From positions 6,661 to 70,660 of the forward strand of contig CAYOCH010000002.1 of assembly GCA_964402535.1 (NCBI GenBank): DNA of 64,000 nt, written 5' to 3'. Under the pieces are notes generated by a model. The model saw nothing but the letters and a program-made list of their open reading frames with translations. It ran no database searches and was not told where the DNA came from. The stretch comes from an uncultured Candidatus Saccharibacteria bacterium. GTDB taxonomy: Bacteria > Patescibacteriota > Minisyncoccia > Phycocordibacterales > Phycocordibacteraceae. Below are positions 42,806-64,000 of the stretch, in pieces. Within the stretch, counting starts at the first letter, position 1. Each line of letters starts with the position of its first letter. The position numbers and the translations under genes were made by a program.

Positions 42806-42823
42806 TCTGCAGACCAAAGAGAA

Positions 42824-42851
42824 AAAGAGGCGGAGAAATCCGCCTCTTTTG
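42824..42851 (+). terminator. intrinsic terminator after the helicase gene
   Basis: agaggcgg-agaaat-ccgcctct followed by TTTT. Confidence 0.6.
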
Positions 42852-43262
42852 CATTGTATATACGGCATATCTTGTCTCGTCGAGACGAGATAGCAAGATG
42901 ATACGCGGGTGGATGATAGTAGGCGTGTACGAATGCTGCGATCGTAGCTGTGAGGTGGTCTTGAGCATGGACAGTGCCGGCATGCGGAGGCAAATCTCGG
43001 AGAATCTCCGTGGAACCACGATGACTGTTGATGCTGGTGTCTTGAGGCTCAAAATTCGCGTATGAGGGGGGGTCACATTTTGCGCACTTTTGGCCGCAGC
43101 AAATGGAGCGAGTCGGTGGCTCGATATCTTGCAGATCAAACTTTGAGCTACCTGAGACAGTCGATGCCATCCGAAAATTTTGCTTGAAAAGTTATCCACT
43201 CATAAAGATGCAATGAACTGGAAATAATCAGTTAGTATCTGATTAGTTCCACTCTTGTACGG

Positions 43263-46200
43263 ATGAAATCGAAGCGCGAAACGAAGGGCCTCATCTCCAC
43301 CCGCTACGCCGGAAAAATTTCGGGCTATACGTCTGCCTACTTGCGCCGCCTCGCACGCTCCGGTGAGATCGAGGGTGTGCAGGTCGGCCGCGTGTGGATG
43401 ATCCGCCAGGCCTCTCTGATTCGCTTTCTCGACGAGCAGGCCAAGCGCAAGGAGGAGCTCTCCAAGGAGCGCGCCCGCGTCCACGCCGAGGAGTACCTCT
43501 CACACCAGGCGCCGGTGAAGCGCGTAGTCGCCAAGATCGCGAAGCCGATCCCGGTCAAGAACGTCGACGTCGAGGGGCTCGTCTCGAGCTCGCGCTCGCT
43601 CGTGGTCACGGTCGTCGTGGCGCTCGTCGCTGGCACGATCGCAGCACAAGGTCTCACGCCGACGCTCACAAGGATCGCTGCGCAGCCGGCGGCGGCACTC
43701 AACGCCGGCGAGCAGATCGCCGTTGCGACCTACGAGACGATCCACGGCCTCTTCACCTCGACGACGAGTGCGCTTGCCGACCTCTTCGCTCCGGCGCCGA
43801 CGATCGTGGTACCGGCTCCGCAGATCCGCGTGAACAAGCCGCCGCTCGCAGTCGCGTCATCATCACCGACGCAGACCAAACCGAAGCAGGTCGCTATCGC
43901 TCCGATTCTCCCGGCTCCGTACAAGGAGCCGGCACCCGTTTCGTACCCGACCTACGTCACGACCATCAACGGCGTCTCGCAGAGCTATGTCGATGCCGCG
44001 GTCTCCGCGATGCGGAGCGGAATCCTCGCCACCGTCTCGGGGATGCTCGCGCCGGTCGCGCAGCAGACCGTCGTCAATCAGACGACCATCCAGCAGGTCA
44101 ACATGATCCAGCGGCTCGGCGGCCTGATCGTCGACAACGGCCAGTTCAACGGCGGCACGTTCGACAAGGGGACGATGACGAACGGCATCGCCGTGAATGC
44201 CGAGAATGCGACGTTCACGAATCTCTCGGCGGGCAACGTGAACCTGGGCGCATCGAACCTCGCGACGACGACCGTCTCGGGCGATCTCACGCTCTCGGGC
44301 GTCTTGTCGGCGAACACGAAGGCTGTCGCGCCCTACTTCGTCGCCACCGCCTCGAACGCCACCAGCACCTTTGCCGGCGGCCTTGCGGTCGGCACGCAGC
44401 GTCTCGTGGTCGACTCGACCACCGGCCGCGTCGGCATCGGCACGACCTCGCCAGCACAGACACTCGAGGTCTCGAGCGCCGGCGACTGGAGCGGCATCAA
44501 CATCACGACGACCGCCGCGGGCAACCACCAGGCGATCTCCTTCAATCACCCGGAGGGCTATCCCTTCCAGATCTTCACGAGCTACACCGGCGGGCGACCT
44601 GACACGCAGTTCTACGTCGGGAGCAGCGGGACGGTCTTCATGTCGAGCAACAAGTTGGCAGTGAACGGCGGGGCGATCCCGTCGGCATCTGAGGCAGCAC
44701 TCTCGGTCGTGCCGGTAGGCACTGAGCCTGGCTTGAACGTCAAGAATAACGTTAACGGCTCATCGTCGCTCTTGGTGACGAATCTCGGCAAGGTGGGTCT
44801 CGCTTCTACGACTCCCTGGGCGCAGCTCTCGGTGAACCCGAACGGCATCACGGGCCCCGCATTCGCGATCGGCAGCTCGACCGCCACCAACTTCGTCGTG
44901 ACGAACGGCGGGCAGGTGGGTATCGGGACGACAAGTCCGGCATACACGTTTGATGTTACCGGTAGTGCGCGGATGGATAACCTCGCAGTGTCACAGAGCG
45001 GCGGCTTCCGCGCTGTCACGGGCAGCTGGGCCGGATCGCCGAGCGGCGACAACCTGAGCTGGCTCGCATTCGGTTGGGCTGACAATACGAAATACCATCG
45101 TATCCGCACGTGCGGGTTCTCGAACGATAACTTGTGCTTCGATTTGATCAATCCGTCGACGCACTACCTCTCGATCACCGGGCAGCTGAACTCGGTCTAC
45201 GGTGCGACGATCGGCTATGCCGCGGGTACTGCCGGACCGACAAACGGCCTTGCCGTGAGCGGCTCGACAGGCATCGGCACCACCTCTCCGTGGGCGCAGC
45301 TCTCGGTTAACCCGAACGGGATCACTGGCCCCGCATTCGCAATCGGCTCCTCGACCGCCACGAACTTCGTCGTGACGAATGGGGGGAATGTCGGGATCGG
45401 GACTACTTCGCCGCAAAGCACGTTTGTCGTCAATGGCACGTCCCAGTTTACGAATAATGCTGTGTTCAATGCGCAGATCAGCGTCAGTCAGATTACCTCG
45501 CCGAATAACTTGTTGATTGCTGCAGGCGGACCACTGGTGCAGATTGCGGGTCACCTAGTGCCGCAAGTTACCGGTACATATGATTTGGGTTCTGCGAGTG
45601 CCGGATGGAGAAACGTGTATGTAACCGGGAACGTCGGCATCGGCACCACCTCGCCAAGCGCGACACTCGCAGTGCAGGGCAACGGCCTTTTCTCGGGCAA
45701 TCTCACCGCCTCGGGCAATACCTATATAGGTGCGACATCGGCGAACACCCTCACGGTGAACGCGCTCGTTAACTCTGACATCACGCCGAGCACGAACGCG
45801 GTCAACTCGCTCGGCTCGCCGAGCTTCTATTGGAAGAATGTCTACGCCGCGAACGTGATCGCCAACAACATCAGCGCCGCCTCGACCACGATCGCGGGCA
45901 CGGCCTCGGCCACCTTCACGATCAACTCGGGCAACGCGACGGCCGACACGCTCGACTCCTCACTCGTCTTCTTCCGCGGGACCGTCGTCCCGAACGCCGT
46001 TCTCGGTTGGGACTCGACCAACAAGCGCTTCACGATGAATCAGCCGCTCTTTATCCAGAACGCGTCGAATAACGGCGGCGGCGTGATCTCGCTCGCGGTA
46101 CAAGGGCTCGCTGGCCAGACCGCCGACGTCCTCCGCATCGCCTCCTCGACCGGCACGAGCTACTTGAACGTGACTGCGGGCGGGAATGTGGGGATCGGGA

Positions 46201-52200: not shown

Positions 52201-54920
52201 GCAAGGCGATGCAGCTTGGTCAGACATTCGGCAACGGGATCAACCTCTCGGCCTCGACGAGCATCCAGATCGGCATCGACTCGAACAATCTCGGCACCGG
52301 CATGTTCGAGATCGCAAGAGGGAACACCTGGAACGGTCGCGCGGGCGTCGACGGCACCTCGCTCTTCAAGATCCTCAACAACGGCAACGTCGGCATCAGC
52401 AACACGAATCCCTCAACCCTCCTCGACGTGAACGGCACGACCACGCTGCGCAACCAGGTGTCGGTGAATGGGGCGAGCTTCTACGACAACACCGGCAAGA
52501 TCGGGCTCGGGGTCAAGATGACGAGCGACCTCAAGACTGCGCTCTATGTCACTGACAACTTTGCGGCGATGAGCGCGATCAATGGCGCATACATCTCATC
52601 GGTCATATACGGCGCCAATACGCAGCAAGGGAAGAACGCGTACTATGGAGCCATCAATGACCCGACGCTCTCGGTGAATATCCAAAACGGTTCCGGGTTC
52701 GTGAGCTATCTCAATAACACCAACAACACCGGCACCAACATCAATCACGGCGGTCTCTTCTATCAGAATCAGACTATGAATGTGGCCAACACCGGAACCG
52801 ATTATGGCTACACCTCGTACAACTACATGCAGAGCAGCGGCAACCCGACCTCGCTTGCGAATTATGTCGGCTTCTACTCTCGCGGGCAATTCGCGGTCGC
52901 GCCGGCGACGACGACCAACCAGTACGACTTCTATGCCGACAACTTCGTGGGGACAGGTAACGGCGCGGTCGTGAACCGCTACGGCGTCTATATCGGCTTC
53001 AACAGCACCGGCATCACGAACCCCTACGGCATCTATCAAGCGAGCCCGACTGTCCAGAACTACTTCGGCGGCAACGTGGGGATCGGCACCACGACGCCCC
53101 TCGCGAAGCTCGCAGTTCTCGGCACGGCAGAGCAGCTCCGTCTCAACTACGACGCGACGAACTACGCGAGCTTCACGGTGAGCAGCGCCGGCACGCTCAC
53201 TATTGCCCCCACGTCGAACGTAATGAATATCTCGGCGACGACACTGAATACGAATACGATCAACGTCGCCACCGGCAACGTCATCAATTTCAACGGGGTA
53301 GGCTACCTCCGCAGCCTGGGCGGCGTGTTTAACATCAATGACACCAACACGAACAACATCCTTCTCGCCAATGGTGGCGGCAACGTCGGCATCGGCACGT
53401 CGACACCTCAAAACAAGCTGACGATCGTCGGCGGGATCGGCACGTTCGTTAACACCAACTCCTCCTACCGAACCGACTGGGATGCCGGCTATATGATCAA
53501 CGACAAGCTTGCGATATCGAAGTACGGCGCAATTGGCCAGCTCTCGATCGACGCACAGGGTCAGTTCGGTTCGGTAATGGTCGGAAATATCGGCAACTAT
53601 GTGAGCAATTTGCTTGTGAGCGGCAACGTGGGGATCGGGACCACGACGCCTGGGAAGAAGTTGGTTATAGATAGCGGCTCGAATGGCAATAGCTTTGCGG
53701 CAAGCTTCAGCAATGGTGGAGCGGGCAGACCATATTGGCTGTATAATTTCCAGCAGCAGAATGTGCAGTGGACTTCTGGATTCGACATTGGAGGGAATAC
53801 AAACGACTTCTCCATCAGCAATACGTACTCTGGAACCCGAGATGTTTTCCACATCGAAAACACGGCGCCTGCGAATAGTTTTAGAATCCAAGCAAATACT
53901 GGCAATATCGGTATCGGTACGACGAGCCCTTCGACCCTCTTACACCTCTACTCGGCGAGTGCGCCATCGATAACGATTGAGTCGTCTGCTGCTGGCGGCG
54001 GCGCGACCGATAGGCGTCTCACCATCAATCAGAACAATGGAGGTACGGCGACACTCACCGCGATGGAGGATGAGAACAGCTCAACTCAGGCGGCGTTCAT
54101 CATCAACGCGACTAACAATCCGAGCAACGCCGCGCTCGCGATTCGGCCCATATTCGATCTGCAGAACGGCGGCAACAGCAAGCTCTTCGTCACAGCCGCA
54201 GGCAATGTCGGCATCGGCAGTACGTCGCCGAATACGAAACTTGTTGTCTCTGACAACAGCGGCCAGACGCTCATCGGCAGCATGGCCGCTTCGTACGGAT
54301 CCATCGGTTTCCAGCCGACCCTCACCACGTCCAATTTCGCGCTCGCCGGCAACACATCTGAAACGATACTTAATACGCTCGCGGGCACGTCGCTCAAGTT
54401 CCGCGTAGCGAACGCAGACAAGATGGTTATGGACCAAAACGGCAATGTCGGCATCGGCACCACGACACCTAGCAATAAGCTGACCGTCGCAGGCGGAGCA
54501 GACTTCGGTACGGCATACAGCCCGACTGGACAGACGATACGTCTAGCGCCGAGCGGAACGTTTTCAGAAGCGGATGTCATTTCTCAAGCGGTAGGATTGT
54601 CGATCTTCGCTAATCCGCAGGCCACAGCGCAGCCGTCATGGATCGACCCGCTTATGAGTCTCCCGAACGGGGCAGGACTGATGTCGACGACGGGAGTCGA
54701 TCTGATTTTGTCCGCGTCATCTCATGCTGGCGGCGGCGTCACGATCGCCGGATATCATAACGGCGCTGCACATGACATCAAGTTCTTCAACGACGGCAAC
54801 GAACAGATGCGCCTCACGACCGCTGGTAATCTCGGCATCGGGACCTCGACGCCGGGCGCGACGATGAACGTCTACTCGGGCGCCGGGACGCCGTGGAATA
54901 CCTACCCATCAGGCACCTGA
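43263..54920 (+). CDS. giant membrane-anchored repeat protein (3885 aa): N-terminal excisionase-type HTH + TM anchor + tail-fibre-like 'GNVGIGTTSP' repeat region
   Basis: N-terminal …LISTRYAGKISGYTSAYLRRLARSGEIEGVQVGRVWMIRQASLIRFL (HTH_17-like). TM helix SLVVTVVVALVAGTIAAQGL. Then ~3700 aa of Gly/Thr/Ser/Asn-rich modules with recurrent GNVGIGTTSP(W/S)A…L(S/A)V and APYFVAT…ATSTFAGG motifs. Ends at TGA, in frame with the next ORF. Confidence 0.8.
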   Translation: MKSKRETKGLISTRYAGKISGYTSAYLRRLARSGEIEGVQVGRVWMIRQASLIRFLDEQAKRKEELSKERARVHAEEYLSHQAPVKRVVAKIAKPIPVKNVDVEGLVSSSRSLVVTVVVALVAGTIAAQGLTPTLTRIAAQPAAALNAGEQIAVATYETIHGLFTSTTSALADLFAPAPTIVVPAPQIRVNKPPLAVASSSPTQTKPKQVAIAPILPAPYKEPAPVSYPTYVTTINGVSQSYVDAAVSAMRSGILATVSGMLAPVAQQTVVNQTTIQQVNMIQRLGGLIVDNGQFNGGTFDKGTMTNGIAVNAENATFTNLSAGNVNLGASNLATTTVSGDLTLSGVLSANTKAVAPYFVATASNATSTFAGGLAVGTQRLVVDSTTGRVGIGTTSPAQTLEVSSAGDWSGINITTTAAGNHQAISFNHPEGYPFQIFTSYTGGRPDTQFYVGSSGTVFMSSNKLAVNGGAIPSASEAALSVVPVGTEPGLNVKNNVNGSSSLLVTNLGKVGLASTTPWAQLSVNPNGITGPAFAIGSSTATNFVVTNGGQVGIGTTSPAYTFDVTGSARMDNLAVSQSGGFRAVTGSWAGSPSGDNLSWLAFGWADNTKYHRIRTCGFSNDNLCFDLINPSTHYLSITGQLNSVYGATIGYAAGTAGPTNGLAVSGSTGIGTTSPWAQLSVNPNGITGPAFAIGSSTATNFVVTNGGNVGIGTTSPQSTFVVNGTSQFTNNAVFNAQISVSQITSPNNLLIAAGGPLVQIAGHLVPQVTGTYDLGSASAGWRNVYVTGNVGIGTTSPSATLAVQGNGLFSGNLTASGNTYIGATSANTLTVNALVNSDITPSTNAVNSLGSPSFYWKNVYAANVIANNISAASTTIAGTASATFTINSGNATADTLDSSLVFFRGTVVPNAVLGWDSTNKRFTMNQPLFIQNASNNGGGVISLAVQGLAGQTADVLRIASSTGTSYLNVTAGGNVGIGTANPGSLFTVSGGSSGEQQVALFTSTGSANTKIAIENAAVGGHRWELRSTSTGTFDIVDRTAPAQRFVIDTAGNVGIGTTSPWAQLSVNPNGVTGPAFAIGSSTATNFVVTNGGQVGIGTTNPQQALHISTTNTYQGIFLNGNAAPSIGFAGWSGLTPAWKVGISGSAGSNLAISTGAANADLFNFTTAGNLGIGTTSPWAQLSVNPNGVTGPAFAIGSSTATNFVVTNGGQVGIGTSNPTLGTGSTTLEVYGNGGGFTQYGSLSLANTTNSGSSYSGSVDYYGATTLYGQIRTHVITGGPSGMSQIELSALNGGALNQVFTVGGTGSVTVGTANGVSSGYLGVYNSAGYGQTNTGIILGNMQTGAGSNIGVNFVDYAQNNIAQILGVYPGGTKAGSLAFSTGNGTSLNEAMRITSAGNIGIGTSTPAEKLDVAGRLSIEDISGNPPSAARSSFVFESNTDPLNTSVSALYVYPRTDTSKRFYFGTTTHQFYAVDFSNVLSITGVTSIQGAPNTQAIDFSSAAYDTTYGTATFDFKPTVDNTRPVVLRNSRVTDSATSVGFVLKTVNTLSNASAKLLTLDNNTTNLLTVMANGNVGIGTTSPFADLSIGGASNGTNPLFAVSTSTASATSTAFIIDKNGNVGIGTANPGQALTVNGEISLLGASGSSRGLLGAPTWDNSYVSLQNGSLSESAANSAINQNSLGDTIVNAATGRALHLRVGNTEQMSFNGTIAAFQNVNVGIGTTSPADNLDVYAPNNAGLAKIGLIRGDGAGYLTQWTYGPAGNGFLEIGENEAFNSSGSARVQFNTGAPSWFQQFNTNVDSYQIARIPAGGSTANVMLYIQSNGNVGIGTTSPSQALSVQGNGLFSGNITAANITATGTVTAANFSGPGVDPQGYGNYLSINPATQDLKFSRGGYWLNFNLTNNTPVITSQNNLLALPGITATSSVFTGYSAQQDVSRSTILSLTRQNTGARFQQAANFIMGGYDSAQTAHTQLDIALTNTATNGVPDATVMSLLGNGNVGIGSTTPAATLAVQGNGLFSGNITAANITATGTLSTTGAISAPYFVATNALATSTFAGGITGPGSFAVQQTTGYVGIGTTSPTSALYVAGNGLTSSVITADGGANSIFGLTVRGYQNWGSGVAYTNQTANRTYVTYQDTTGNFNIYDSTVGNRVTVTSTGSVGIGTTTPFYKLEVNGTVEVANGSGLYALSSSGTHYRLVDLDASNVVNMGPNGSIQIANGAPSSAIFVQNTGSVGIGTNSPQVALHVGPTAAGANEVARFEHANAAGSSGITIYQNGTLKGSLGTGDFVATGGANTDFGIQSAGNMLFATGGTVQKMVLTSGGNVGIGSTSPTSLLSVYGAAGAATVTIGSPSNSALLTLDRGSNTQNATFNLNTAGVNYGYFGLDTSANSVTLASSNNNQLTVSAHNANLLLRGGTSNGIIMQTNGSAEAMRVTSGGNVGIGSSTPSAVLAVSNTAATAANTPLFTIASTTGGTSTSSLMTVLANGNVGIGTSNPTSPLYVSGAPALQAVIGTTANTQNWISIIKSSSQTASFGIRANNYGFLQANTGMQIENSSSQPYIVFDGVNEGIGTTSPSATLAVQGNGLFSGNITAANITATGTLSTTGAISAPYFVATSPTATSTFAGGATFATSGGNVGIGTANPGYALDVAGLAGINGRVKLGAGNDQVDIANGGLVLHDSGTTAYVEAQNSNKPLVLGTSNADIQFTTGFGVTELMRIKANGNVGIGTSTPAATLAVAMASTTPAFYIGAAGSSSPAFYVGSANGSGLVGIGTSAPDHPLQITGNPLLTSAVVRVGAVAQNVSALRVKGYFNGLNGNEDAGGVNVYNYNSATVQATLGGDSGLFASPRGTNLVAAIVRGLTGQTANLQEWQDVNGNPLSVITSSGNLGVGTSSPAQALSVAGTGYFATNVGIGVANPGVYSLMVQAPTIGGQVFGVTTNYGNSGKFEVSFNSGNDPFAHLTTKQGGQIAYYDMYDSVGKAMQLGQTFGNGINLSASTSIQIGIDSNNLGTGMFEIARGNTWNGRAGVDGTSLFKILNNGNVGISNTNPSTLLDVNGTTTLRNQVSVNGASFYDNTGKIGLGVKMTSDLKTALYVTDNFAAMSAINGAYISSVIYGANTQQGKNAYYGAINDPTLSVNIQNGSGFVSYLNNTNNTGTNINHGGLFYQNQTMNVANTGTDYGYTSYNYMQSSGNPTSLANYVGFYSRGQFAVAPATTTNQYDFYADNFVGTGNGAVVNRYGVYIGFNSTGITNPYGIYQASPTVQNYFGGNVGIGTTTPLAKLAVLGTAEQLRLNYDATNYASFTVSSAGTLTIAPTSNVMNISATTLNTNTINVATGNVINFNGVGYLRSLGGVFNINDTNTNNILLANGGGNVGIGTSTPQNKLTIVGGIGTFVNTNSSYRTDWDAGYMINDKLAISKYGAIGQLSIDAQGQFGSVMVGNIGNYVSNLLVSGNVGIGTTTPGKKLVIDSGSNGNSFAASFSNGGAGRPYWLYNFQQQNVQWTSGFDIGGNTNDFSISNTYSGTRDVFHIENTAPANSFRIQANTGNIGIGTTSPSTLLHLYSASAPSITIESSAAGGGATDRRLTINQNNGGTATLTAMEDENSSTQAAFIINATNNPSNAALAIRPIFDLQNGGNSKLFVTAAGNVGIGSTSPNTKLVVSDNSGQTLIGSMAASYGSIGFQPTLTTSNFALAGNTSETILNTLAGTSLKFRVANADKMVMDQNGNVGIGTTTPSNKLTVAGGADFGTAYSPTGQTIRLAPSGTFSEADVISQAVGLSIFANPQATAQPSWIDPLMSLPNGAGLMSTTGVDLILSASSHAGGGVTIAGYHNGAAHDIKFFNDGNEQMRLTTAGNLGIGTSTPGATMNVYSGAGTPWNTYPSGT
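44817..46920 (+). repeat. intragenic near-identical ~125-nt DNA repeats (family A: WAQLSVNPNG(I/V)TGPAFAIGSSTATNFVVTNGG(Q/N)VGIGT)
   Basis: Copies at ~44817, 45291, 46446 and 46797 (>90% nt identity between the last two), plus a fifth in the second ORF at ~56484. Confidence 0.7.
45652..51150 (+). repeat. intragenic ~75-150-nt repeats (family B: ATLAVQGNGLFSGNITAANITATGTLSTTGAISAPYFVAT…ATSTFAGG)
   Basis: Copies at ~45652, 48760, 49283 and 50993; the 49283 and 50993 copies are >90% identical over ~150 nt. Confidence 0.7.
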
Positions 54921-54968
54921 GCTGCGATCGTCAACCAGTCGCAGAACATTAGCGGCGGCAACGGCCTC

Positions 54969-57900
54969 GTGGTGGTCAACAAGTATCTCTCGGCCAACTC
55001 GACCACCTTCGAGGTTGGGACGATCAACGACAGCAACGGCGTCTACGCCTCATCGCTCAAGATCACGGGCGACAACGCGGTCCGCGTGCCGCTCACGCTC
55101 CAGCTCGGCAACTCGGGCGGCAACGTGACCAGTCTGCAGCTCGGCGCCAACACCTCGGTCGCGAGCGGCGCCGTGATCGCGAATATCTATAACGCCAGCA
55201 ATAATCCGGGCATCACGGTCGGTACGAGCCGCACCGACGGCACCGCCTTCACGGTCGCAAACGGGATCACTTATGACGCGAACAAGGTGCCGAACTCGGG
55301 CGGCACCGCGCTCCTCACCGTGCTCGGCGGCGGCAATGTTGGCGTGGGCACCACCTCGCCGTATGCGCTCCTCGCCCTCTCGAACTCAGTGTCGACGCCC
55401 GCTAACACGCCGTTCTTCACGATCTCGAGCACAACCGGCGGCACCTCTACCTCGACCCTCATGACCGTGCTCGCGAACGGGTACGTGGGCATCGGGACGG
55501 CGAGTCCGGGACGATTCCTGGATGTGGTGGCGAGTACCACTGCCGGGACAGAAATCGCGCGATTCACCAACACGCCTGTAAGCAATCGGTATATCTCTGT
55601 CCGCACGGTGGGCGCGTCTGATTTCGGCGGTGCGTACATCGGCGGGCCGATGTTGGACAGCAGTGATCCCCAGGTCATTTTCGGCAAGAATCTGTTACTG
55701 CCAAGTAACGGTGCGAATATAGCATTGGCTCAATCCAGCTTGACGAGTTCGTCTGCCGGGGGAACGGTGCTGACGAGCGGCGGATCGACGGCCCAAGCCG
55801 GGACAACTATCCAGCTGGGGAATAGCTCGACTTTCCAAGGGAATCTGTACGTTAAAGATGGGTCGGGGAACACGGTGATGACAGTCCAACCGACAGGTAA
55901 TGTCGGTATTGGTGCCACCGCACCAACCTCGCCCTTGACGGTCGTGACGCCCTCACTGTGGGGCAATGGGGCAGCAGGCGAGAATCTAGGCGTGACGGTC
56001 AACCCGTCGGCCAACGGCACGCTCTATGGGCTTTTTAACCTGACAAGTGTCACGGCCACGACCACGACCGGCAACGCGGCCGTCGTCGGCTCTCAGAACA
56101 CGGTGACGGCCACCAATAACAACGGCGGCAACACCACGCTCACCGCCGTCTCTGGGACGACGAACAACACCGGCGGTGGGAGCGCAAGCCAGATGACCGG
56201 CTTCTTTACGAATCCGGCGGTCTATAACACCGGTTCGTCGGTGAGCTCGCTCTATAACTTCTACGCAAACGACGTCTATCTCGGCAACGGCACCTCGCAG
56301 CCCTTCGGCTCGGTCAACAAGCTCTACGGCTATTATGTCGGTGCGCTCCAGAGCGCCTCGACCAACTACGGCCTCTTCTTCGCCAACAACCCGAACGGCG
56401 GCTCGATCGCCTCGGCCGCCTCGACCAACATCTCGATCCTGCCCGGCTCGGGCGGGAGCGTGGGGATCGGCACCACATCGCCGTGGGCACAACTTTCGGT
56501 CAACCCGAACGGGATCGCGGGCCCCGCCTTCGCGATCGGCTCCTCGACCGCGACGAACTTCGTCGTGACGAACGGCGGGAATGTGGGGATCAACACGGTT
56601 AACGCGACGAACGCTCTCACGTTCGGCGCGACAGGCGGCTATGAGATCTCGACGGAGCCGAACAATGCAAACGACCTCAACATCACGACGAACGCGACGA
56701 ACGGCGGCGGGATCTCTCTCGGTGCAAGAAACTCGAACAAATCGATCTATGTGAGTATCGGGGGTGGAGTCGGTATCGGCACGACCTCGCCGCGCGCCGC
56801 TCTTGAGATCGGCGGCAGCGCGAACCCGTCCGTCTACCTCAACTCGCAATATTCAACGCCGAGCACGATGCAGTGGTATATCCCGAACATCGCGACGATG
56901 TCGCTCGTCGCAAATGCGGTCGGGAACGAAAACGCAAACGCGCAGTGGGTCATGGACATGGGCTCTAGTGACGGCCTTACAGATTCTTTTGGCGTACTCC
57001 GCGCTAGTACCGTGGGTTCCACCCGCGTGCCGTTCTTCGTGGTGAACAACAACGGCAACACCGGCATCGGCACCACGACGCCGGGCGGCGACCTCTCGAT
57101 CGCAGGCAGCGCCGGCGGCACCAACCCGCTCTTCCTCATCTCTTCGAGTACCTCGGGCTACGCGACCTCGACCGCGTTCATGGTCGACAGTTACGGCAGC
57201 CTTGGCATCGGTCGGGTGCCGAACGCGCAGCTCTCAGTGGCTGGCGACGCCTATATCGGTACTGGCGCAGGCTCCTTCACCTTCACCTCCAACTACAACT
57301 TCAACGCACAAGGCACCAACTTCGGCCCGAGCCTCAACATCTCTGATGGCGATGCGACAAACCGCTGGGCCTCACTGCGCCTATCGACGGCGGGCGGTCA
57401 ATGGGAGATGGCCGACATGGGCGGGAACCTCGGATTCCTCCGCGGCTCGAACAATCGCGTAGTGATCGGTCGCTCCGATAGCAGCAATGCGAACCTGAAC
57501 GTCTACAACGACGCCAACACCATCCTCTTCACGGTTCAGCCGACGGGCTACGTCGGTATCGGTCCGAGCAACCCAGTTAATCAGCTCGACATCGGCATCG
57601 GGCCGTTCGCAACCGCCAAGACGGCCAACTTCAGCACCCTCAACATCGCGAACACGGCGACCTCCTCGTCGTCGTTCACGAAGACCGGCATGCAGATCTC
57701 ATCGACCGGCGCGTGGACAGGCCCGAACTACGGCCTCTATGTCTCGGCGGTCTCGGGCGGCACCAACAACTACGACGCGATCTTCAACGGCGGCGGCAAC
57801 GTCGGTATCGGCACCACGACGCCTTCGGATCTCTTGTCACTCGCTTCAACTAATCCGAGAATCGACCTGTTTGACACGAATGTTTCGGGTCCGGCGCGTG

Positions 57901-60281
57901 TCGCACTCACGGCGTATGGCGGAACCAATGCAAACGCTGCTCTGCAGACGCGTACGAATGTCCCGCTGATTTTCGGTGCAAATTCTAGTGCCAGCCAGCT
58001 CGTGCTCGCAACAAATGGCAACGTCGGCATCGGCACCACGACGCCCGGGAAGCCTCTCACTATCGCTGCTACGGGTTCCGGACCGTCTATCGGCACGGGA
58101 ATGCTTTCGCTCGTAGGTCCGCACAATACGACTGCTCGCCCTGAAATATTCTTCCAGAATTCCGCTGCCGGGACGACATATACCGGCGGTCTGCGCTGGT
58201 ATGACGGCAATGGCAACGAAGGGTGGGGTATTGAAAGCAATAGGGCCATAGGAACCGGTTATCTCGAATTCAACATTGCTGGCTCCAATAAGATGGTTCT
58301 CGACCCGTCTGGAAATGTCGGCATCGGCTCAACGAGCCCCACCTATACGCTTTCAGTTGACAAAGGCAGCGTCGGCAACCAGGCGGCATTCGGGCATACG
58401 GCCAAGGGATATCTCTATGACGACGGCACCAACTTCTGGCTTTCAAGTGCGGCGAGCGTGGCCGGCCCCGGCATAGGCTTTGCGCAATCTCTCGGTACCG
58501 CCTATCTGACCTATGCGACCGGGCAGGTAGGATTTACGATGGACAACTCTGGCAATGTCGGTATCGGCCGGAGCCCGGGCGTGCGGCTGGACGTGCAGGG
58601 TGTGAACAGCTCGTCGATCGTGCGGATTACGGCGGGCGGCGCGGGCGTCATACTCGGAGCCGACGTGGCGGGGAATGCGCTCTATGGGAACTCCGCCTAT
58701 GGCACCGCGCTGACCCTAAGCGCCGCGGGTGCCTTGCGCTTGAATGCCTATGGGGCGGGTACGCTCACGACCGATGCGAGTGGTAATGTCACGGCATCTT
58801 CCGATGCTCGCCTGAAGAATGTGGATGGAGGCTACACGCGCGGCCTCGAGGCGATACGCGGATTGTCGCCCCAGCTCTACCACTGGAACGCGGCGAGCGG
58901 ACTCGATCAGACGACGCAGTATGCCGGCTTTATCGCGCAGAACGTACGGCAGTACATTCCCGAGGCAGTCGGACAGACGCCGAGCGGTTATCTGACGCTC
59001 GCCGACCGTCCTATTGAAGCGGCGCTCGTGAATGCCGTGCAGCAGCTCGATAACCGAACGAGCTGGATCCAGGTAGCGAGCTCGAGCGCAACGACCACAC
59101 CGGTGCTCACCTTCGACCCGACGACAGGCCGCGTCGGCATCGGGTCGACCACGCCGACCCACACCCTCACGGTCGCAGGCGACGTCGGCGCGATCGCCTT
59201 CGTCAACACCTCGACACGAGACGCCAAGACTGACATCTCCTACGTGAACGCCTCGACGACCGAGGATATGCTGAACGCGCTCGTGAACCTCAAGGTCGCG
59301 ACCTATCACTACAAGGTCGAGCCCGAGACCGATCCGCTCCGCCTCGGCTTCATCGCAGAGGATGCAGCTAAGATCGCGCCCGAGATCCTCTCGCCGGACG
59401 GCAAGGGCGTCGACCTCTACAAGCTCGCGACCTTCACGCTCGCCGGCGTCCAGTCGCTCGCTGCGAAGGTCGATGTGCAAGGGACCAAGATCACCTCGCT
59501 TGAACAGCGCGTTGCGGCGCTCGAGAGCGGGGCAGTGTCGGTGGGCAGCTCGGCGCCGCAGCTCTCGACGAGCTCGCTCGCGAGCGCGATCTCGAGCATC
59601 ACGGAGGTCCTCAATATCGGCAAGCTCGTGTCGCAGACGTTCTATGCGGCGCAGGGCTTCTTCGACCGCTTGACGGCGGCGAACGCGACGATCGGTTCCT
59701 CGTCGACGCCGTCTGGCGTAACCTTCTTCGACACGGTTACCAAGCAGCCGTTCTGCTTCACGATCGCGAACGGAGTACCGACCACGACGCCGGGCGTCTG
59801 CGCCACCTCGAATGAGACGACCAATCCGTTCGCGACGTCGACACCGGCTGCTGCTGCAGCGACGAGCTCGCCGATCTCGGTGCTCGGCGCCAACCCGCTC
59901 CTGCTCGCGGTCGGGGCGACCTTCACCGACCCTGGCGTCACGGTCGCGAGCGGGGCAGCGGTGACCACATTCGTGAACGGCATACAGCAAGTGGTCTCAT
60001 CGACGACGATCAGCACGCTTAGTCCGACGACCTATATCATCACCTACCAGTCAACTGACGCCACGGGCGCACTCATATCGGCGACTCGCTCGGTGATAGT
60101 GGGGAACCCCGACGGCACGGTCTCGACCGGCGTTTCGACGACGACCGCTACCAGCACACCGATCACGATCCAGACGGTTGCGACGAGTACCACAGCCTCG
60201 TCTAGCCCGATCACGATCACTCCGGTCGACACCACCACAACCGCCTCAACGACATCCGCCACCTCAACTTCTGCACTTTAA
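54969..60281 (+). CDS. C-terminal part (1770 aa) of the giant repeat protein: repeats + two tandem S74 intramolecular-chaperone domains + DUF5011 Ig-like domain + Thr/Ser tail
   Basis: Same frame as 43263..54920 with no stop in the 48-nt gap; only a GTG start. Shares repeat families with the upstream ORF. S74-like domains: SDARLKNVDGGYTRGLEAIRGLSPQLYHW…GFIAQNVRQYIPEAV…GYLTLADRPIEAALVNAVQQLD (~58800-59090) and DAKTDISYVNAS…LKVATYHYK…LGFIAEDAAKIAPEIL…GVDLYKLATFTLAGVQSLAAKV…LEQRVAALE (~59220-59560). DUF5011-like …PGVTVASGAAVTTFVNGIQQV…TYIITYQSTDATGALISATRSVIV (~59880-60110). Confidence 0.75.
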   Translation: MVVNKYLSANSTTFEVGTINDSNGVYASSLKITGDNAVRVPLTLQLGNSGGNVTSLQLGANTSVASGAVIANIYNASNNPGITVGTSRTDGTAFTVANGITYDANKVPNSGGTALLTVLGGGNVGVGTTSPYALLALSNSVSTPANTPFFTISSTTGGTSTSTLMTVLANGYVGIGTASPGRFLDVVASTTAGTEIARFTNTPVSNRYISVRTVGASDFGGAYIGGPMLDSSDPQVIFGKNLLLPSNGANIALAQSSLTSSSAGGTVLTSGGSTAQAGTTIQLGNSSTFQGNLYVKDGSGNTVMTVQPTGNVGIGATAPTSPLTVVTPSLWGNGAAGENLGVTVNPSANGTLYGLFNLTSVTATTTTGNAAVVGSQNTVTATNNNGGNTTLTAVSGTTNNTGGGSASQMTGFFTNPAVYNTGSSVSSLYNFYANDVYLGNGTSQPFGSVNKLYGYYVGALQSASTNYGLFFANNPNGGSIASAASTNISILPGSGGSVGIGTTSPWAQLSVNPNGIAGPAFAIGSSTATNFVVTNGGNVGINTVNATNALTFGATGGYEISTEPNNANDLNITTNATNGGGISLGARNSNKSIYVSIGGGVGIGTTSPRAALEIGGSANPSVYLNSQYSTPSTMQWYIPNIATMSLVANAVGNENANAQWVMDMGSSDGLTDSFGVLRASTVGSTRVPFFVVNNNGNTGIGTTTPGGDLSIAGSAGGTNPLFLISSSTSGYATSTAFMVDSYGSLGIGRVPNAQLSVAGDAYIGTGAGSFTFTSNYNFNAQGTNFGPSLNISDGDATNRWASLRLSTAGGQWEMADMGGNLGFLRGSNNRVVIGRSDSSNANLNVYNDANTILFTVQPTGYVGIGPSNPVNQLDIGIGPFATAKTANFSTLNIANTATSSSSFTKTGMQISSTGAWTGPNYGLYVSAVSGGTNNYDAIFNGGGNVGIGTTTPSDLLSLASTNPRIDLFDTNVSGPARVALTAYGGTNANAALQTRTNVPLIFGANSSASQLVLATNGNVGIGTTTPGKPLTIAATGSGPSIGTGMLSLVGPHNTTARPEIFFQNSAAGTTYTGGLRWYDGNGNEGWGIESNRAIGTGYLEFNIAGSNKMVLDPSGNVGIGSTSPTYTLSVDKGSVGNQAAFGHTAKGYLYDDGTNFWLSSAASVAGPGIGFAQSLGTAYLTYATGQVGFTMDNSGNVGIGRSPGVRLDVQGVNSSSIVRITAGGAGVILGADVAGNALYGNSAYGTALTLSAAGALRLNAYGAGTLTTDASGNVTASSDARLKNVDGGYTRGLEAIRGLSPQLYHWNAASGLDQTTQYAGFIAQNVRQYIPEAVGQTPSGYLTLADRPIEAALVNAVQQLDNRTSWIQVASSSATTTPVLTFDPTTGRVGIGSTTPTHTLTVAGDVGAIAFVNTSTRDAKTDISYVNASTTEDMLNALVNLKVATYHYKVEPETDPLRLGFIAEDAAKIAPEILSPDGKGVDLYKLATFTLAGVQSLAAKVDVQGTKITSLEQRVAALESGAVSVGSSAPQLSTSSLASAISSITEVLNIGKLVSQTFYAAQGFFDRLTAANATIGSSSTPSGVTFFDTVTKQPFCFTIANGVPTTTPGVCATSNETTNPFATSTPAAAAATSSPISVLGANPLLLAVGATFTDPGVTVASGAAVTTFVNGIQQVVSSTTISTLSPTTYIITYQSTDATGALISATRSVIVGNPDGTVSTGVSTTTATSTPITIQTVATSTTASSSPITITPVDTTTTASTTSATSTSAL

Positions 60282-60295
60282 CGATACTCTGCTCT

Positions 60296-61039
60296 GAATG
60301 AAGGACATCGTATGTCCTTCATTCAAGCTTTTCGTAAGGCTTGAAGCTCGAATCTGAATCGCGGAGATATTCGTGAATGGACACGGAATAGCTTCCGAGA
60401 GCGTCTTTGAATAGCGTCGGTGATAAGAGGGAAGGGAAGTTGTGTTCACCAGTATAATCCGGATAGCTGCTCCAACGATACGTACGCAAATATTTCAAAG
60501 CATCATCCACATTTCGTATTCCAGCCTTCTCGCGTAGACGCCACTGTTCAGCCCCTGGTAGATAATCAAGCGGATTCAAGTGAATGTAGTGAAGGATGTA
60601 CAAGAAGTGCGAGTCGCGGTCGATCAGAATCTTCTTGGTGCGGCCCTGGAAGAGAGTGCCGCTGCGTGAATATCGCTCGTTGAAATATTTTGCGTAGCCG
60701 ACGTTGAGCTTTCGTAAGAAGAGGCTCATGGCACCGTCGACGCGTTCGCTCAACAGCAGGTGGTAGTGATTTTTCATCAGTACCCAGCCATGGATGTCGA
60801 CTAGCAGCTCCCGCGGTTCCCTAAATGAAGGACATACGAAGTCCCTCATGGCAGTCGGGTCAAATAGGCGCCACACGTTGTCTGCGGGTGCTGTATCGTT
60901 AAACTCATAGAGATCGTGCACGAAGCGAGCGTAATCCTGGGTATCAAGGAACAAATCTCTCCCCTCAACGCCGCGATTTAGGACGTGCCAAAGTTCCATA
61001 TACATCATGATACATGAAGGACATACGATGTCTTTCATG
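60296..61039 (-). mobile_element. second IS200/RAYT-like element: Y1 transposase flanked by ~27-nt hairpins
   Basis: Perfect hairpin GAATGAAGGACAT-CGT-ATGTCCTTCATTC at 60296-60324 and CATGAAGGACAT-ACG-ATGTCTTTCATG at 61013-61039; a degenerate third copy lies inside the gene at 60823-60849. Confidence 0.6.
60319..60999 (-). CDS. IS200-like Y1 (HuH) transposase / RAYT, copy 2
   Basis: HuH motif MKNHYHLLL, …FQGRTKKILIDRDSHFLYILHYIHLNPL…; divergent homolog of 40149..40850. The track start 61038 lies inside the flanking hairpin, so the internal ATG (MELWHVL…) is preferred. Confidence 0.65.
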   Translation of the reverse strand: MELWHVLNRGVEGRDLFLDTQDYARFVHDLYEFNDTAPADNVWRLFDPTAMRDFVCPSFREPRELLVDIHGWVLMKNHYHLLLSERVDGAMSLFLRKLNVGYAKYFNERYSRSGTLFQGRTKKILIDRDSHFLYILHYIHLNPLDYLPGAEQWRLREKAGIRNVDDALKYLRTYRWSSYPDYTGEHNFPSLLSPTLFKDALGSYSVSIHEYLRDSDSSFKPYEKLE

Positions 61040-61115
61040 CAGATGACCTCCCAGTGGACAACGAAGACGAACTATGGCACAGTGATTCCTGTCATAGTCC
61101 TTTGGGAGAGAAGTC

Positions 61116-61754: not shown

Positions 61755-61774
61755 ATGAGAGCGCAGACTTCGCA

Positions 61775-61798
61775 ACGGGTCCTACGGGACCCGTTTTT
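61775..61798. terminator. bidirectional intrinsic terminator
   Basis: acgggtcc-tac-gggacccgt followed by TTTTT, between convergent HDOD(+) and recR(-). Confidence 0.6.
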
Positions 61799-61801
61799 CA
61801 T

Positions 61802-63795: not shown

Positions 63796-63811
63796 TGCGC
63801 CGATTATACCT

Positions 63812-64000
63812 CTAGGGGCGCTTGGTCAACACTGGCCCAGAAGGGCCGTCATCCACACGATATCCACGGTTCTCGATCTCTCCTCGGAGCTGGTCAGCCG
63901 CGGCAAAATCCTTGGCCTTGCGGGCTGCCTCGCGCTTGTCGAGCAAGTCGCGTACCTCGGCAGGGATATCTGCGCCAGAGAGGGTAGTGGGAGCTCGTGC
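63812..64000 (-). CDS. cysS: cysteinyl-tRNA synthetase, C-terminal fragment (gene continues beyond window)
   Basis: …DLLDKREAARKAKDFAAADQLRGEIENRGYRVDDGPSGPVLTKRP*, the conserved CysRS C-terminal helix. Confidence 0.55.
   Translation of the reverse strand, partial: ARAPTTLSGADIPAEVRDLLDKREAARKAKDFAAADQLRGEIENRGYRVDDGPSGPVLTKRP

What the first reader, a model, noticed from the sequence alone, without database searches (positions are those of the whole stretch)
43263..60281. ~17-kb giant tail-fibre-like surface protein locus (3885 + 1770 aa, possibly one ~5670-aa protein)
A single reading frame runs for 17 kb. It starts with an N-terminal cytoplasmic HTH and a TM anchor. Then come thousands of residues of beta-rich modules with recurrent GNVGIGTTSP and APYFVAT…STFAGG motifs, reminiscent of phage tail-fibre/tailspike and beta-helix adhesin repeats. 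The C-terminus ends in S74 chaperone domains and an Ig-like domain. Proteins of this type in small-genome bacteria are candidates for host or substrate attachment. The size, modularity and near-identical internal DNA repeats make this the dominant accessory feature of the window.
Basis: partly seen in the sequence, partly recalled or inferred. Interest (0 to 1): 0.8.

Follow-up and report, generated by a model that had tools for sequence, protein, structure and literature searches.

The report
Giant cell-anchored tail-fibre-like surface protein
A tiny-celled bacterium of the Patescibacteria (Kaiserbacteria-like) carries a 17-kb gene for a membrane-anchored fibre built like a phage tail fibre; it is probably used to grip other cells, but this copy is interrupted by one stop codon.

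Summary
Positions 43263-60281 are one reading frame of 5,671 sense codons, broken by a single TGA at 54918-54920. Only the "near-identical DNA repeats" claim is overstated; the best repeats are 85-93% identical over 105-160 nt.

The gene is chromosomal, not prophage. It belongs to an unnamed family of giant proteins in Paceibacteria, Kaiserbacteria and Minisyncoccia. Uninterrupted single ORFs in that family (2,604-7,214 aa) have the same HTH - TM - fibre - S74 - Ig order. ORF1 and ORF2 are therefore one ancestral gene.

The nearest characterised relatives are the Bdellovibrio MAT trimeric fibres (Bd3182, Bd1334, Bd2133). The recurring motif matches their beta-helix capping loop.

Most likely mechanism (inferred): an N-in/C-out trimeric fibre, roughly 0.2-0.35 µm long, folded and possibly self-cleaved by the S74 chaperones, and used for attachment.

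TGA is an ordinary stop in this genome. I found no recoding signal, so the stop is a nonsense mutation, a strain variant or an assembly error.

Novelty: a new variant of a known kind, because of the cytoplasmic DNA-binding-type wHTH anchor, the roughly fivefold size, and the tandem internal S74 domains followed by an Ig tip.

The parts
43192..43262 (+). Promoter and leader region. It holds a conserved upstream element TTATCCACT (43192-43200), a -10-like TAGTAT (43233-43238) and a conserved leader running up to the ATG.
   Evidence: Alignment A1 of 14 family loci shows an invariant TATCC.C inside (C)TTATCCACA, 62-80 nt upstream of the ATG, followed by a conserved leader. The same element sits about 40 nt upstream of GATAAT boxes before other operons in relatives, so it is probably a general promoter element (inference).
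43263..54920 (+). ORF1: 3885 aa, ending in the in-frame TGA.
   Evidence: It is identical to the public protein P0124 (NCBI, 94,941-nt contig).
43290..43538 (+). Cytoplasmic winged HTH (aa 10-48) followed by a long basic helix (aa 49-92).
   Evidence: Pfam HTH_17 scores 22.7 bits, below the cutoff. AF2 pLDDT is 94-98. Foldseek best matches are Xis 4j2n (rmsd 1.4 A over 48 aa), TraN, RdfS, GlnR, BldC and RacA.
43599..43655 (+). Single transmembrane helix, aa 113-131 (LVVTVVVALVAGTIAAQGL).
   Evidence: Mean Kyte-Doolittle hydropathy over 19 aa is 2.24. It is the only such segment in the 5,672 positions. The preceding 112 aa have K+R 24 against D+E 12. It is predicted as a helix, aa 114-129.
43656..44327 (+). 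Conserved juxtamembrane 'fibre base', aa 132-355: a helix (aa 148-174), a Pro-rich linker (aa 178-236), a long helix (aa 240-287) and the first beta repeats.
   Evidence: This is the region matched at 36-53% identity in 29 Patescibacteria genomes and in 72 cluster representatives at E<=1e-30.
44328..58799 (+). Fibre shaft, aa 356-5179: about 48 beta-rich modules delimited by G-x-V-G-I-G-T-x-x-P-x-x-x-L capping-loop motifs, spaced 37-206 aa apart (median 91).
   Evidence: for the motifs. PHROG tail-fibre profiles. Sequence matches to the Bdellovibrio MAT fibres Bd3182, Bd1334 and Bd2133, aligned on the capping loops (PMC10769870).
54918..54920 (+). In-frame TGA inside module 35, 31 aa after its capping-loop motif.
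   Evidence: TGA ends 16 of 43 long ORFs in the window. The RNA downstream has no unusual structure (z 0.26). There is no terminator nearby. Uninterrupted family ORFs align across this position.
54969..60281 (+). ORF2: 1770 aa from the first GTG, with no export signal of its own.
   Evidence: There is no SD or -10-like element upstream. Positions 56550-64000 match an independent Logan assembly of SRR5161805 with no mismatch.
58800..59084 (+). S74 intramolecular chaperone domain 1. The catalytic motif SDARLK starts at full-length aa 5180.
   Evidence: Pfam PF13884, best stretch ORF2 aa 1278-1334. Motif. AF2 pLDDT is 94-97.
59211..59525 (+). S74 domain 2 (STRDAK at aa 5317), preceded by one more capping loop (GRVGIGSTTPTHTLTV) and followed by a long helix.
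   Evidence: It aligns to the MyRF ICA domain 7dc3 with Ser and Lys in register. Foldseek's top hit is 7dc3, E 1.2e-4, TM 0.70. This domain is strongly conserved across the family (consensus).
59718..59792 (+). Small two-Cys beta unit (KQPFCFTIANGVPTTTPGVC).
   Evidence: AF2 strands with pLDDT 77-89. The unit is conserved in the 7214-aa relative P0126.
59874..60101 (+). Ig-like domain (Bact_surface_Ig-like, the former DUF5011).
   Evidence: Pfam 36.2 bits against a cutoff of 27. AF2 pLDDT is about 93. Foldseek matches Ig/PKD/Rib domains of adhesins and glycan-binding proteins.
60129..60278 (+). Thr/Ser-rich disordered C-terminal tail.
   Evidence: Sequence. pLDDT is below 50.
60295..60325 (+). 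Terminator-like hairpin (14 bp) after the gene.
   Evidence: A matching hairpin at 42823-42850 closes the upstream helicase gene.

Best explanation
This is one chromosomal gene of a Kaiserbacteria/Paceibacteria-type bacterium (Patescibacteria). It encodes a giant type-II membrane protein of about 5,670 aa.

The layout, from N to C terminus:
- a cytoplasmic winged-HTH domain and a basic helix;
- one TM helix;
- a Pro-rich wall-spanning linker and a coiled-coil neck;
- about 48 beta-helix/prism modules of the kind seen in Bdellovibrio MAT fibres and phage tail fibres, each bounded by a capping loop;
- two S74 intramolecular-chaperone/autoprotease domains;
- a small Cys unit, an Ig-like domain and a Thr/Ser-rich tail.

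What is shown: the architecture, the homologies, the family membership, the chromosomal context, and the presence of the catalytic Ser/Lys motifs.

What is inferred:
- Three chains intertwine from the C-terminal S74 domains backwards into a fibre about 0.2-0.35 µm long that projects from the cell.
- The S74 domains may self-cleave at S5180 and/or S5317.
- The distal end binds a surface structure of a host or partner cell.

The internal TGA is not a conserved feature of the family. In this assembly it truncates the product to an anchored 3,885-aa shaft without tip or chaperone, unless it is a minority variant or a consensus error.
For: - Frame, stop and motifs.
- Domains.
- Topology.
- Folds of the wHTH and of the S74/Ig domains.
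- MAT homology on the capping loops: together with PMC10769870.
- The MyRF ICA alignment keeps Ser and Lys in register.
- Family: 29 Patescibacteria genomes, and 72 cluster representatives at E<=1e-30 with lengths up to 7,214 aa.
- The same HTH-S74-Ig order occurs in the single ORFs L005 (3143 aa), L017 (2797 aa), L020 (2604 aa) and P0126 (7214 aa).
- P0126 matches both ends of the window protein: 49% identity at the N-terminal base, and 37% over 1,174 aligned columns at the C terminus.
- Neighbours are housekeeping genes: RmuC, DEAD helicase, RecR, DnaB, Mur ligase, PBP.
- The gene has its own conserved promoter/leader and flanking terminators.
- GC content matches the rest of the window.
- ORF2 has no TM or signal segment and no start signals.
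- An independent assembly is identical over 56550-64000.
Against: - The TGA is in the public assembly, and TGA is a genuine stop in this genome. As assembled, the full-length protein is not made.
- Trimerisation, autoproteolysis, surface exposure and binding are all untested. Only monomer AF2 was available, and the fibre part of the N-terminal model had low confidence.
- No close orthologue covers the junction: the best hit is 38% identical over 35% of the query.
- Repeats of 110-160 nt at 85-93% identity occur in frame-preserving register. A short-read assembly broke at one of them, so copy number or order of the modules could be mis-assembled.
- The window's synteny differs from the Obg-GatB-HTH-giant arrangement of relatives.
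Confidence: 0.68

Rival explanations
1. The gene is a pseudogene or truncated allele. The TGA is a real, fixed nonsense mutation, and the cell makes only the anchored 3,885-aa shaft, or nothing. ORF2 is a decaying remnant.
For: - The TGA is present in the deposited assembly.
- TGA is used as a stop in 16 of 43 long ORFs.
- No recoding structure follows it.
- Relatives have no stop at an equivalent place.
Against: ORF2 stays open for 1,770 codons. Its S74 catalytic motifs and Ig domain are intact, and its domains are predicted with high confidence. Any inactivation is therefore very recent, or the stop is a strain variant or an error. The state of the reads could not be checked.
Confidence: 0.3
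2. There are two functional genes: ORF1 is a membrane-anchored stalk, and ORF2 is a separately translated tip/chaperone subunit that joins it.
For: A GTG lies 16 codons after the stop. Some phage fibres are assembled from separate proximal and distal subunits (general knowledge).
Against: - ORF2 has no TM or signal sequence, and no SD, promoter or leaderless-type start.
- The stop falls in the middle of a module.
- All complete relatives are single ORFs.
- Family ORFs align straight across the junction.
Confidence: 0.07
3. The TGA is read through by programmed recoding (selenocysteine, UGA-to-Gly as in code 25, or stimulated read-through), giving the full 5,672-aa protein.
For: Some Patescibacteria lineages (Absconditabacteria, Gracilibacteria) reassign UGA (general knowledge). 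Both halves of the gene are intact.
Against: - TGA terminates about a third of the genes here, and there is no other in-frame TGA in 5,671 codons.
- The downstream RNA folds no better than shuffled sequence.
- Relatives have no conserved stop.
Confidence: 0.04
4. It is a prophage or phage-derived tail-fibre gene that acts in a virion or a tailocin, not a cellular surface protein.
For: PHROG tail-fibre profiles match at 1e-67 and 6e-59. S74 domains are typical of phage fibres. tblastn hits phage tail-fibre genes.
Against: - The protein has an N-terminal cytoplasmic domain plus a TM anchor.
- Neighbours are housekeeping genes, with no phage structural genes among those checked.
- The chromosomal locus is conserved next to Obg and GatB in relatives.
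- Phage hits are only 25-39% identical and partial.
- IMG/VR holds no close relative of the C-terminal 393 aa.
- GC content is not anomalous.
Confidence: 0.03
5. It is a passive envelope structure (spacer, glycocalyx or S-layer-like fibre, or biofilm matrix) with no specific binding partner.
For: The composition is Gly/Thr/Ala/Ser/Asn-rich and there is a Thr/Ser-rich tail. The long shaft is highly repetitive. No recognisable lectin or enzyme domain was found beyond the Ig domain.
Against: In the characterised homologues (Bdellovibrio MAT fibres, phage S74 fibres) the distal end is a ligand-binding tip (PMC10769870). The conserved S74-Ig cassette at the distal end suggests a selected tip function.
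Confidence: 0.12

Closest known systems
Bdellovibrio bacteriovorus MAT (mosaic adhesive trimer) fibres, S74 subgroup, e.g. Bd3182 (PDB 8OJN/8ONB/8ONC); also Bd1334 (8OML/8ON4) and Bd2133 (8OND). Caulton et al. 2024, PMC10769870.
   Same: - These are cellular, non-phage surface fibres of a bacterium that lives on other bacteria.
- There is direct sequence similarity (E about 4e-5), aligned on the capping-loop motif (V-G-I/V-G/N-T-x-x-P-x-x-x-L).
- Module spacing is about 90-100 aa.
- The S74 domain carries an S-D-x-x-x-K motif.
   Different: - MATs are about 1,000 aa, with a Sec signal peptide and a conserved N-terminal domain of about 130 aa. This protein is about 5,670 aa, with a cytoplasmic wHTH and a TM anchor.
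- Here there are two tandem S74 domains. They are internal and are followed by about 350 aa (Cys unit, Ig domain, T/S tail).
- The organism is a Patescibacteria bacterium, not a Gram-negative predator.
Phage tail fibres and tailspikes with a C-terminal Peptidase_S74 intramolecular chaperone (K1F endosialidase, T5 pb1; PHROGs 9942 and 18345).
   Same: The S74 domain and its catalytic dyad are shared. The shaft is beta-rich and matches the profiles strongly. Folding is presumed to be trimeric and chaperone-dependent.
   Different: - This gene is not in a phage genome.
- The protein is membrane-anchored at its N terminus rather than docked to a baseplate.
- It is 5-10 times longer.
- The S74 domains are not terminal.
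Eukaryotic Myelin Regulatory Factor (MyRF) ICA domain (PDB 7DC3).
   Same: MyRF is the best structural match to the second S74 domain, and the catalytic Ser and Lys align. Both proteins combine a DNA-binding domain, a TM helix and an S74-type domain in one chain.
   Different: In MyRF the S74 domain sits on the same side of the membrane as the DNA-binding domain, and its cleavage releases the transcription factor. Here the S74 domains are extracytoplasmic and about 5,000 residues away from the wHTH, so their cleavage cannot release it.
The unnamed Patescibacteria family annotated in NCBI as 'tail fiber domain-containing protein', 'DUF5011 domain-containing protein' or 'helix-turn-helix domain-containing protein' (e.g. 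Kaiserbacteria HCR52088.1/KKW43645.1, 2418 aa; JGI Ga0376277_0000953 gene, 7214 aa).
   Same: It shares the N-terminal wHTH-TM-base module, the fibre repeats, the S74-Ig C-terminal cassette and the conserved promoter/leader.
   Different: - The window copy has an internal TGA.
- It lacks the insertion of about 340 aa between the TM helix and the base that most members have.
- It lies in a different gene neighbourhood.
- Some members add a Hint/intein-type domain, which is absent here.

Membership tests
Peptidase_S74 / intramolecular chaperone autoprocessing domain | Profile match above the curated threshold | tested here: met
   PF13884 scores 71.2 bits against a cutoff of 22, in two stretches.
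Peptidase_S74 / intramolecular chaperone autoprocessing domain | Catalytic Ser-Lys dyad (S-D-x-x-x-K) | tested here: met
   SDARLK is at aa 5180 and STRDAK at aa 5317. In the second, Ser and Lys align with the catalytic positions of MyRF 7dc3.
Peptidase_S74 / intramolecular chaperone autoprocessing domain | Fold: beta core followed by a long C-terminal helix | tested here: met
   The AF2 model has pLDDT 87-97 across both domains. Foldseek's top hit is the MyRF ICA domain, E 1.2e-4, TM 0.70.
Peptidase_S74 / intramolecular chaperone autoprocessing domain | Trimerisation-dependent self-cleavage | not testable with these tools
   This needs expression of the fragment and S5180A / S5317A mutants.
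Bdellovibrio MAT superfamily | Beta-helix modules with the capping-loop motif, and sequence similarity to solved MATs | tested here: met
   phmmer hits 8ojn (3.7e-5), 8on4 (4.6e-5) and 8ond (1.1e-4), aligned on the loops. There are 45-49 motifs. The motif definition is from PMC10769870.
Bdellovibrio MAT superfamily | Sec signal peptide followed by the conserved beta-rich N-terminal domain of about 130 aa | tested here: not met
   The N terminus is a wHTH plus basic helix plus an internal TM helix at aa 113-131, not a signal peptide. Similarity of aa 132-355 to the MAT N-domain could not be tested, because no MAT N-terminal sequence was available.
Bdellovibrio MAT superfamily | Intertwined homotrimer along the whole fibre | not testable with these tools
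   Only monomer AF2 was available. The fibre part of the monomer model had pLDDT below 50.
Phage tail fibre (PHROG 9942 / 18345) | Profile match | tested here: met
   E-values are 1e-67 (11 stretches) and 5.6e-59 (7 stretches).
Phage tail fibre (PHROG 9942 / 18345) | Encoded in a phage or prophage beside other virion genes | tested here: not met
   Neighbours are RmuC, a Y1_Tnp-like gene, DEAD helicase, RecR and DnaB. Relatives lie beside SecA, Obg and GatB. IMG/VR holds no relative of the C terminus.
HTH_17 / excisionase-MerR-like winged HTH | Profile match above the curated threshold | tested here: inconclusive
   The window protein scores 22.7 bits against a cutoff of 27. The homologous domain of L020 reaches 27.9 bits.
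HTH_17 / excisionase-MerR-like winged HTH | Fold | tested here: met
   AF2 pLDDT is 96-98 for aa 11-70. Foldseek gives Xis 4j2n at rmsd 1.4 A and TM 0.73-0.75, and also TraN, RdfS, GlnR, BldC and RacA. E-values are weak because only about 50 aa align.
HTH_17 / excisionase-MerR-like winged HTH | DNA binding | not testable with these tools
   This needs an EMSA, for example with the upstream region 43143-43262.
Patescibacteria wHTH-TM giant fibre family (unnamed) | Homologous N-terminal wHTH-TM-base module together with a C-terminal S74-Ig cassette | tested here: met
Bact_surface_Ig-like (PF16403, the former DUF5011) | Profile match above threshold and an Ig fold | tested here: met
   It scores 36.2 bits against 27, with pLDDT about 93 and Ig/PKD/Rib structural matches.
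Trimeric autotransporter adhesins (one JGI hit carried this name) | C-terminal YadA-type beta-barrel anchor | tested here: not met
   Pfam finds no such domain. The anchor here is an N-terminal TM helix.
UGA recoding (code 4/25 or selenocysteine) | TGA used as a sense codon in other genes, or a SECIS-like hairpin after the TGA | tested here: not met
   16 of 43 long ORFs end in TGA. There is only one in-frame TGA in 5,671 codons. The downstream fold has z 0.26.

The most novel reading that the evidence does not exclude
The fibre doubles as a contact sensor. The conserved cytoplasmic wHTH (Xis/MerR/BldC-like) is a membrane-tethered DNA-binding domain, and its activity or release is coupled to what the 0.2-0.35-µm extracellular fibre touches. 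Possible routes are load- or ligand-induced intramembrane proteolysis, or clustering. On this reading, attachment to a host cell directly reprogrammes transcription, or tethers DNA at the attachment site, in an organism with very few classical signalling systems. It would be a prokaryotic, inverted-topology counterpart of MyRF or Notch-type signalling. The conservation of the wHTH-TM module at the head of at least 72 cluster representatives, and of a specific upstream DNA element and leader, is compatible with autoregulation but does not demonstrate it.
Probability: 0.1. Interest if true: 0.85.

Novelty: new variant of a known kind. Interest (0 to 1): 0.55.

Why it matters
Patescibacteria (CPR) make up a large share of bacterial diversity. 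Most are thought to live attached to other cells, yet the molecules that mediate attachment are largely unknown.

This locus, and the family it belongs to (dozens of Paceibacteria and Kaiserbacteria genomes, proteins up to 7,214 aa), gives a concrete candidate with a testable structure. It is a cell-anchored fibre as long as the cell itself, homologous to the prey-recognition fibres of Bdellovibrio and to phage receptor-binding fibres.

It also has a feature that neither of those has: a DNA-binding-type domain on the cytoplasmic end.

The locus also shows why such genes are under-reported. Short-read assemblies break inside them, so most database entries are partial proteins labelled 'tail fiber domain-containing' or 'DUF5011'.

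Tried and rejected
- Exact-protein look-ups of ORF1 and ORF2 in the contig index found nothing. This was so even though ORF1 is in the protein collection.
- A 24-base pattern spanning the stop, with the stop codon left free, found nothing in JGI metagenomes. The state of the TGA in other samples could not be checked.
- The only independent contig (Logan SRR5161805) stops at 56550, inside a repeat and short of the junction.
- The search for homologous proteins returned no hit longer than 1,226 aa in any of its three searches. It therefore could not find full-length orthologues. The junction query gave only repeat-level similarity (at most 38% identity), and the N-terminal query gave 3 partial proteins.
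- NCBIfam has no model for either ORF.
- The whole ORF2 against PDB sequences gave nothing at E<=0.01; only sub-segments did.
The single-protein scan found no relative.
- Four literature searches and one follow-up paper found no description of this Patescibacteria family.
- Rejected readings: prophage gene, trimeric autotransporter, global UGA recoding, and a composite transposon. The two flanking Y1_Tnp-like genes are only 36% identical.
- I first suspected that the conserved TTATCCACA (the DnaA-box consensus) was a specific operator for the protein's own HTH. I downgraded this after finding the same element before SecA and other operons.
Full report
**1. The observation**

ORF1 (43263-54920, 3885 aa, ATG) and ORF2 (54969-60281, 1770 aa, GTG) lie in the same frame. 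Translating 43263-60281 gives 5,673 codons with only two stops: a TGA at 54918-54920 and the terminal TAA. With a stop expected about every 31 codons at this GC content, such an open frame cannot be chance.

Pfam finds the following:
- HTH_17 at aa 16-59 (22.7 bits, below the gathering score of 27);
- two Peptidase_S74 stretches in ORF2 (71.2 bits);
- Bact_surface_Ig-like PF16403, the former DUF5011 (36.2 bits).

PHROG tail-fibre profiles match at 1e-67 and 6e-59.

A single hydrophobic segment (aa 113-131) follows an N-terminal stretch with net charge +12. This gives an N-in/C-out topology.

One claim does not hold. The DNA repeats are not near-identical. The best are 93% over 126 nt and 90.6% over 159 nt, the other module repeats are 85-90% identical, and there are no tandem arrays.

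**2. Where it sits and whose it is**

The neighbours are housekeeping genes: Mur ligase, PBP, tRNA-Glu, RmuC, DEAD-box helicase, RecR and DnaB. Two diverged Y1_Tnp-like genes are also present. GC content is like the rest of the window.

Terminator-like hairpins close the upstream gene (42823-42850) and follow the giant gene (60295-60325). None lies near the internal stop.

The N-terminal 355 aa have relatives in 29 species-representative genomes. All are Patescibacteria: Kaiserbacteria, Paceibacterota, Minisyncoccia, and some labelled Saccharibacteria. The closest named full-length relative is a 2,418-aa Kaiserbacteria protein. The window itself matches public NCBI and Logan data.

This is therefore a chromosomal gene of a Kaiserbacteria-like CPR bacterium, not a prophage gene. 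Phage genomes give only 25-39% partial matches, and IMG/VR holds no relative of the C terminus.

**3. One gene or two**

In the related loci, the frame carrying the N-terminal module is open for 659 to more than 4,017 codons. Most run off contig ends.

Three complete single ORFs show the order HTH_17 - (TM) - repeats - Peptidase_S74 - Bact_surface_Ig-like: L005 (3143 aa), L017 (2797 aa) and L020 (2604 aa).

An exhaustive HMMER search finds 72 cluster representatives at E<=1e-30, with lengths up to 7,214 aa. The 7,214-aa protein is a single called gene with HTH_17, S74 and Ig-like hits. It matches the window protein at both ends: 49% identity over the base, and 37% over 1,174 aligned columns at the C terminus.

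Several further points argue for one gene:
- The window's stop lies 31 aa into a 169-aa module.
- Sixteen alignments (HSPs) from uninterrupted family ORFs run straight across it.
- ORF2 has no TM or signal segment.
- ORF2 has no SD, promoter-like or leaderless-type start context, although SDs are rare in this genome in any case.

ORF1 and ORF2 are therefore one ancestral gene.

The TGA is not explained by recoding. Sixteen of 43 long ORFs here end in TGA. It is the only in-frame TGA in 5,671 codons. The RNA downstream folds no better than shuffles (z 0.26). Relatives have no stop at an equivalent place.

Three explanations remain: a recent nonsense mutation, a strain variant fixed in the consensus, or an error. 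I could not decide between them. The one independent assembly is identical to the window from 56550 to 64000, but it breaks at 56550, inside a repeat and short of the junction.

**4. What the parts are**

*N terminus.* In the AF2 model (24-sequence alignment), aa 10-48 form a winged HTH, followed by a long basic helix to aa 92. pLDDT is 94-98. The best structural matches are DNA-binding excisionase/MerR-type domains: Xis 4j2n (rmsd 1.4 A), TraN, RdfS, GlnR, BldC and RacA.

Next come the following elements:
- the TM helix;
- a helix at aa 148-174;
- a Pro-rich, low-confidence stretch at aa 178-236, which I read as a wall-spanning linker (inference);
- a long helix at aa 240-287, probably a coiled-coil neck (inference).

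*Shaft.* PDB sequence searches hit only the Bdellovibrio MAT fibres Bd3182, Bd1334 and Bd2133 (E about 4e-5). The alignments are anchored on G-x-V-G-I/V-G/N-T-x-x-P-x-x-x-L. In the Bd3182 crystal structure that motif forms the capping loops of an intertwined trimeric beta-helix (PMC10769870).

The window protein has about 49 such loops at a median spacing of 91 aa. This is close to the roughly 96 aa between the two loops of the Bd3182 tip.

*C terminus.* The AF2 model (66 sequences) gives two confident S74 domains, each ending in a long helix. They are followed by a small two-Cys beta unit, a confident Ig domain and a disordered Thr/Ser-rich tail. Foldseek's best hit is the MyRF ICA (S74) domain. 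The Ig domain resembles those of adhesins and glycan-binding proteins.

The catalytic motifs are SDARLK (aa 5180) and STRDAK (aa 5317). The second aligns Ser-to-Ser-position and Lys-to-Lys with MyRF.

The tandem S74-Ig cassette occurs in 445 database proteins. Most of those that carry a source name are from Patescibacteria.

**5. How it most likely works**

*Shown:* the architecture, homology, topology prediction, intact catalytic motifs and family conservation.

*Inferred from the MAT and phage S74 systems (PMC10769870):*
- Three chains are exported with the N terminus retained in the membrane.
- The C-terminal S74 domains nucleate trimerisation.
- The shaft zips up into a beta-helical fibre.
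- The S74 domains may then cut at S5180 and/or S5317.

If the first site cleaves, the mature fibre ends at residue 5179, and a 493-aa fragment carrying the Ig domain is released or stays bound non-covalently.

For length, I scaled from Bd3182: 60 A for 135 aa of beta-helix, and about 550 A for the whole fibre. The roughly 4,800-aa shaft would then be about 0.2-0.35 µm long. This is comparable to the diameter of a CPR cell (my estimate).

The likely role is attachment to a host or partner cell surface.

The role of the cytoplasmic wHTH is open. It could bind DNA, as a membrane-tethered regulator or a nucleoid tether. It could instead serve as a protein-docking module, as the HTH of RodZ does for MreB (general knowledge).

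**6. Regulation**

A conserved element, (C)TTATCCACA, lies 62-80 nt upstream of the ATG in all 14 aligned loci (TTATCCACT in the window, 43192-43200). A conserved leader follows it.

The same element occurs about 40 nt upstream of GATAAT boxes before SecA and other operons in relatives. I therefore read it as a general promoter element of these bacteria, not as a dedicated operator.

**7. Comparison and novelty**

The protein works like a MAT or phage S74 fibre. It passes the sequence-motif, S74 and Ig tests.

It fails the MAT N-terminal criterion, because it has no signal peptide and carries a wHTH-TM module instead. It also fails the phage-context criterion.

It is a member of a widespread but, as far as my searches show, undescribed Patescibacteria family. 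Databases label the fragments of that family 'tail fiber domain-containing', 'DUF5011' or 'helix-turn-helix domain-containing'.

I rate it a new variant of a known kind. Interest is moderate to high. It gives a concrete, testable candidate for CPR-host attachment, with an unusual cytoplasmic DNA-binding-type anchor. Three things temper this: the internal stop, the lack of any functional data, and possible module mis-assembly.

Noticed in passing
window 16579-16884 (- strand): A tRNA-Thr(UGU) gene is split in its anticodon loop by a 233-nt group I intron. Rfam RF00028 scores 64 bits at 16625-16862, and ARAGORN with introns allowed finds the tRNA. The default tRNA scan missed it.
   Followed up: partly
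window 43192-43200 and 38074-38082; loci L004-L031 at about 8400-8700 and about 700-2600: TTATCCACA, identical to the E. coli DnaA-box consensus, is conserved upstream of the giant gene in 14 loci. It also occurs about 40 nt upstream of GATAAT boxes before the SecA and Y1_Tnp-like operons. In the window, sites with at most 1 mismatch number 14 against 4.2 expected. It is probably a lineage-wide promoter or regulatory element.
   Followed up: partly
window 40149-40850 (+) and 60319-61038 (-): Two Y1_Tnp (IS200-like / REP-associated tyrosine transposase-like) genes, 36% identical, bracket the DEAD-helicase and giant-gene block in opposite orientation. A similar gene sits near the locus in relatives (L011, L032).
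   Followed up: partly
L011:8477-16591; proteins P0277, P0279, P0281 and others: Some family members end in a Hint/intein-type domain (PF14890 Intein_splicing) after the S74-Ig cassette. This is reminiscent of the processing modules of polymorphic toxins. It is absent from the window protein.
   Followed up: no
L032:8001-29645 (P0126); L005 from about position 35: The largest relative found is a single 7,214-aa ORF with two tandem wHTH modules at its N terminus. In L005 a second gene with the same leader and HTH start lies upstream of the giant gene, which suggests tandem paralogues. Genome JBAQWN01 has two loci (L003, L012).
   Followed up: partly
L017:6939-7799, L011:6987-7778, L032:6837-7571: A small protein of 244-286 aa sits immediately upstream of the giant gene in relatives, after Obg and GatB. 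In L017 and L011 it carries a related HTH_17 domain (31-40% identical over the HTH). The L032 gene had no Pfam hit on record. The window has no equivalent at that position.
   Followed up: partly
window-wide gene starts (e.g. 1468, 40149, 62434-63795): Only 6 of 30 gene starts have an SD-like motif. Several have a TATA(A/C)T-like box 6-12 nt before the ATG, which suggests widespread leaderless or near-leaderless mRNAs.
   Followed up: no
window 56463-56591 / L033: The independent Logan assembly of SRR5161805 is identical to the window from 56550 onward but ends exactly inside the PWAQLSVNPNG...GNVGI repeat module. Short-read assemblers evidently break at these 110-160-nt repeats.
   Followed up: yes
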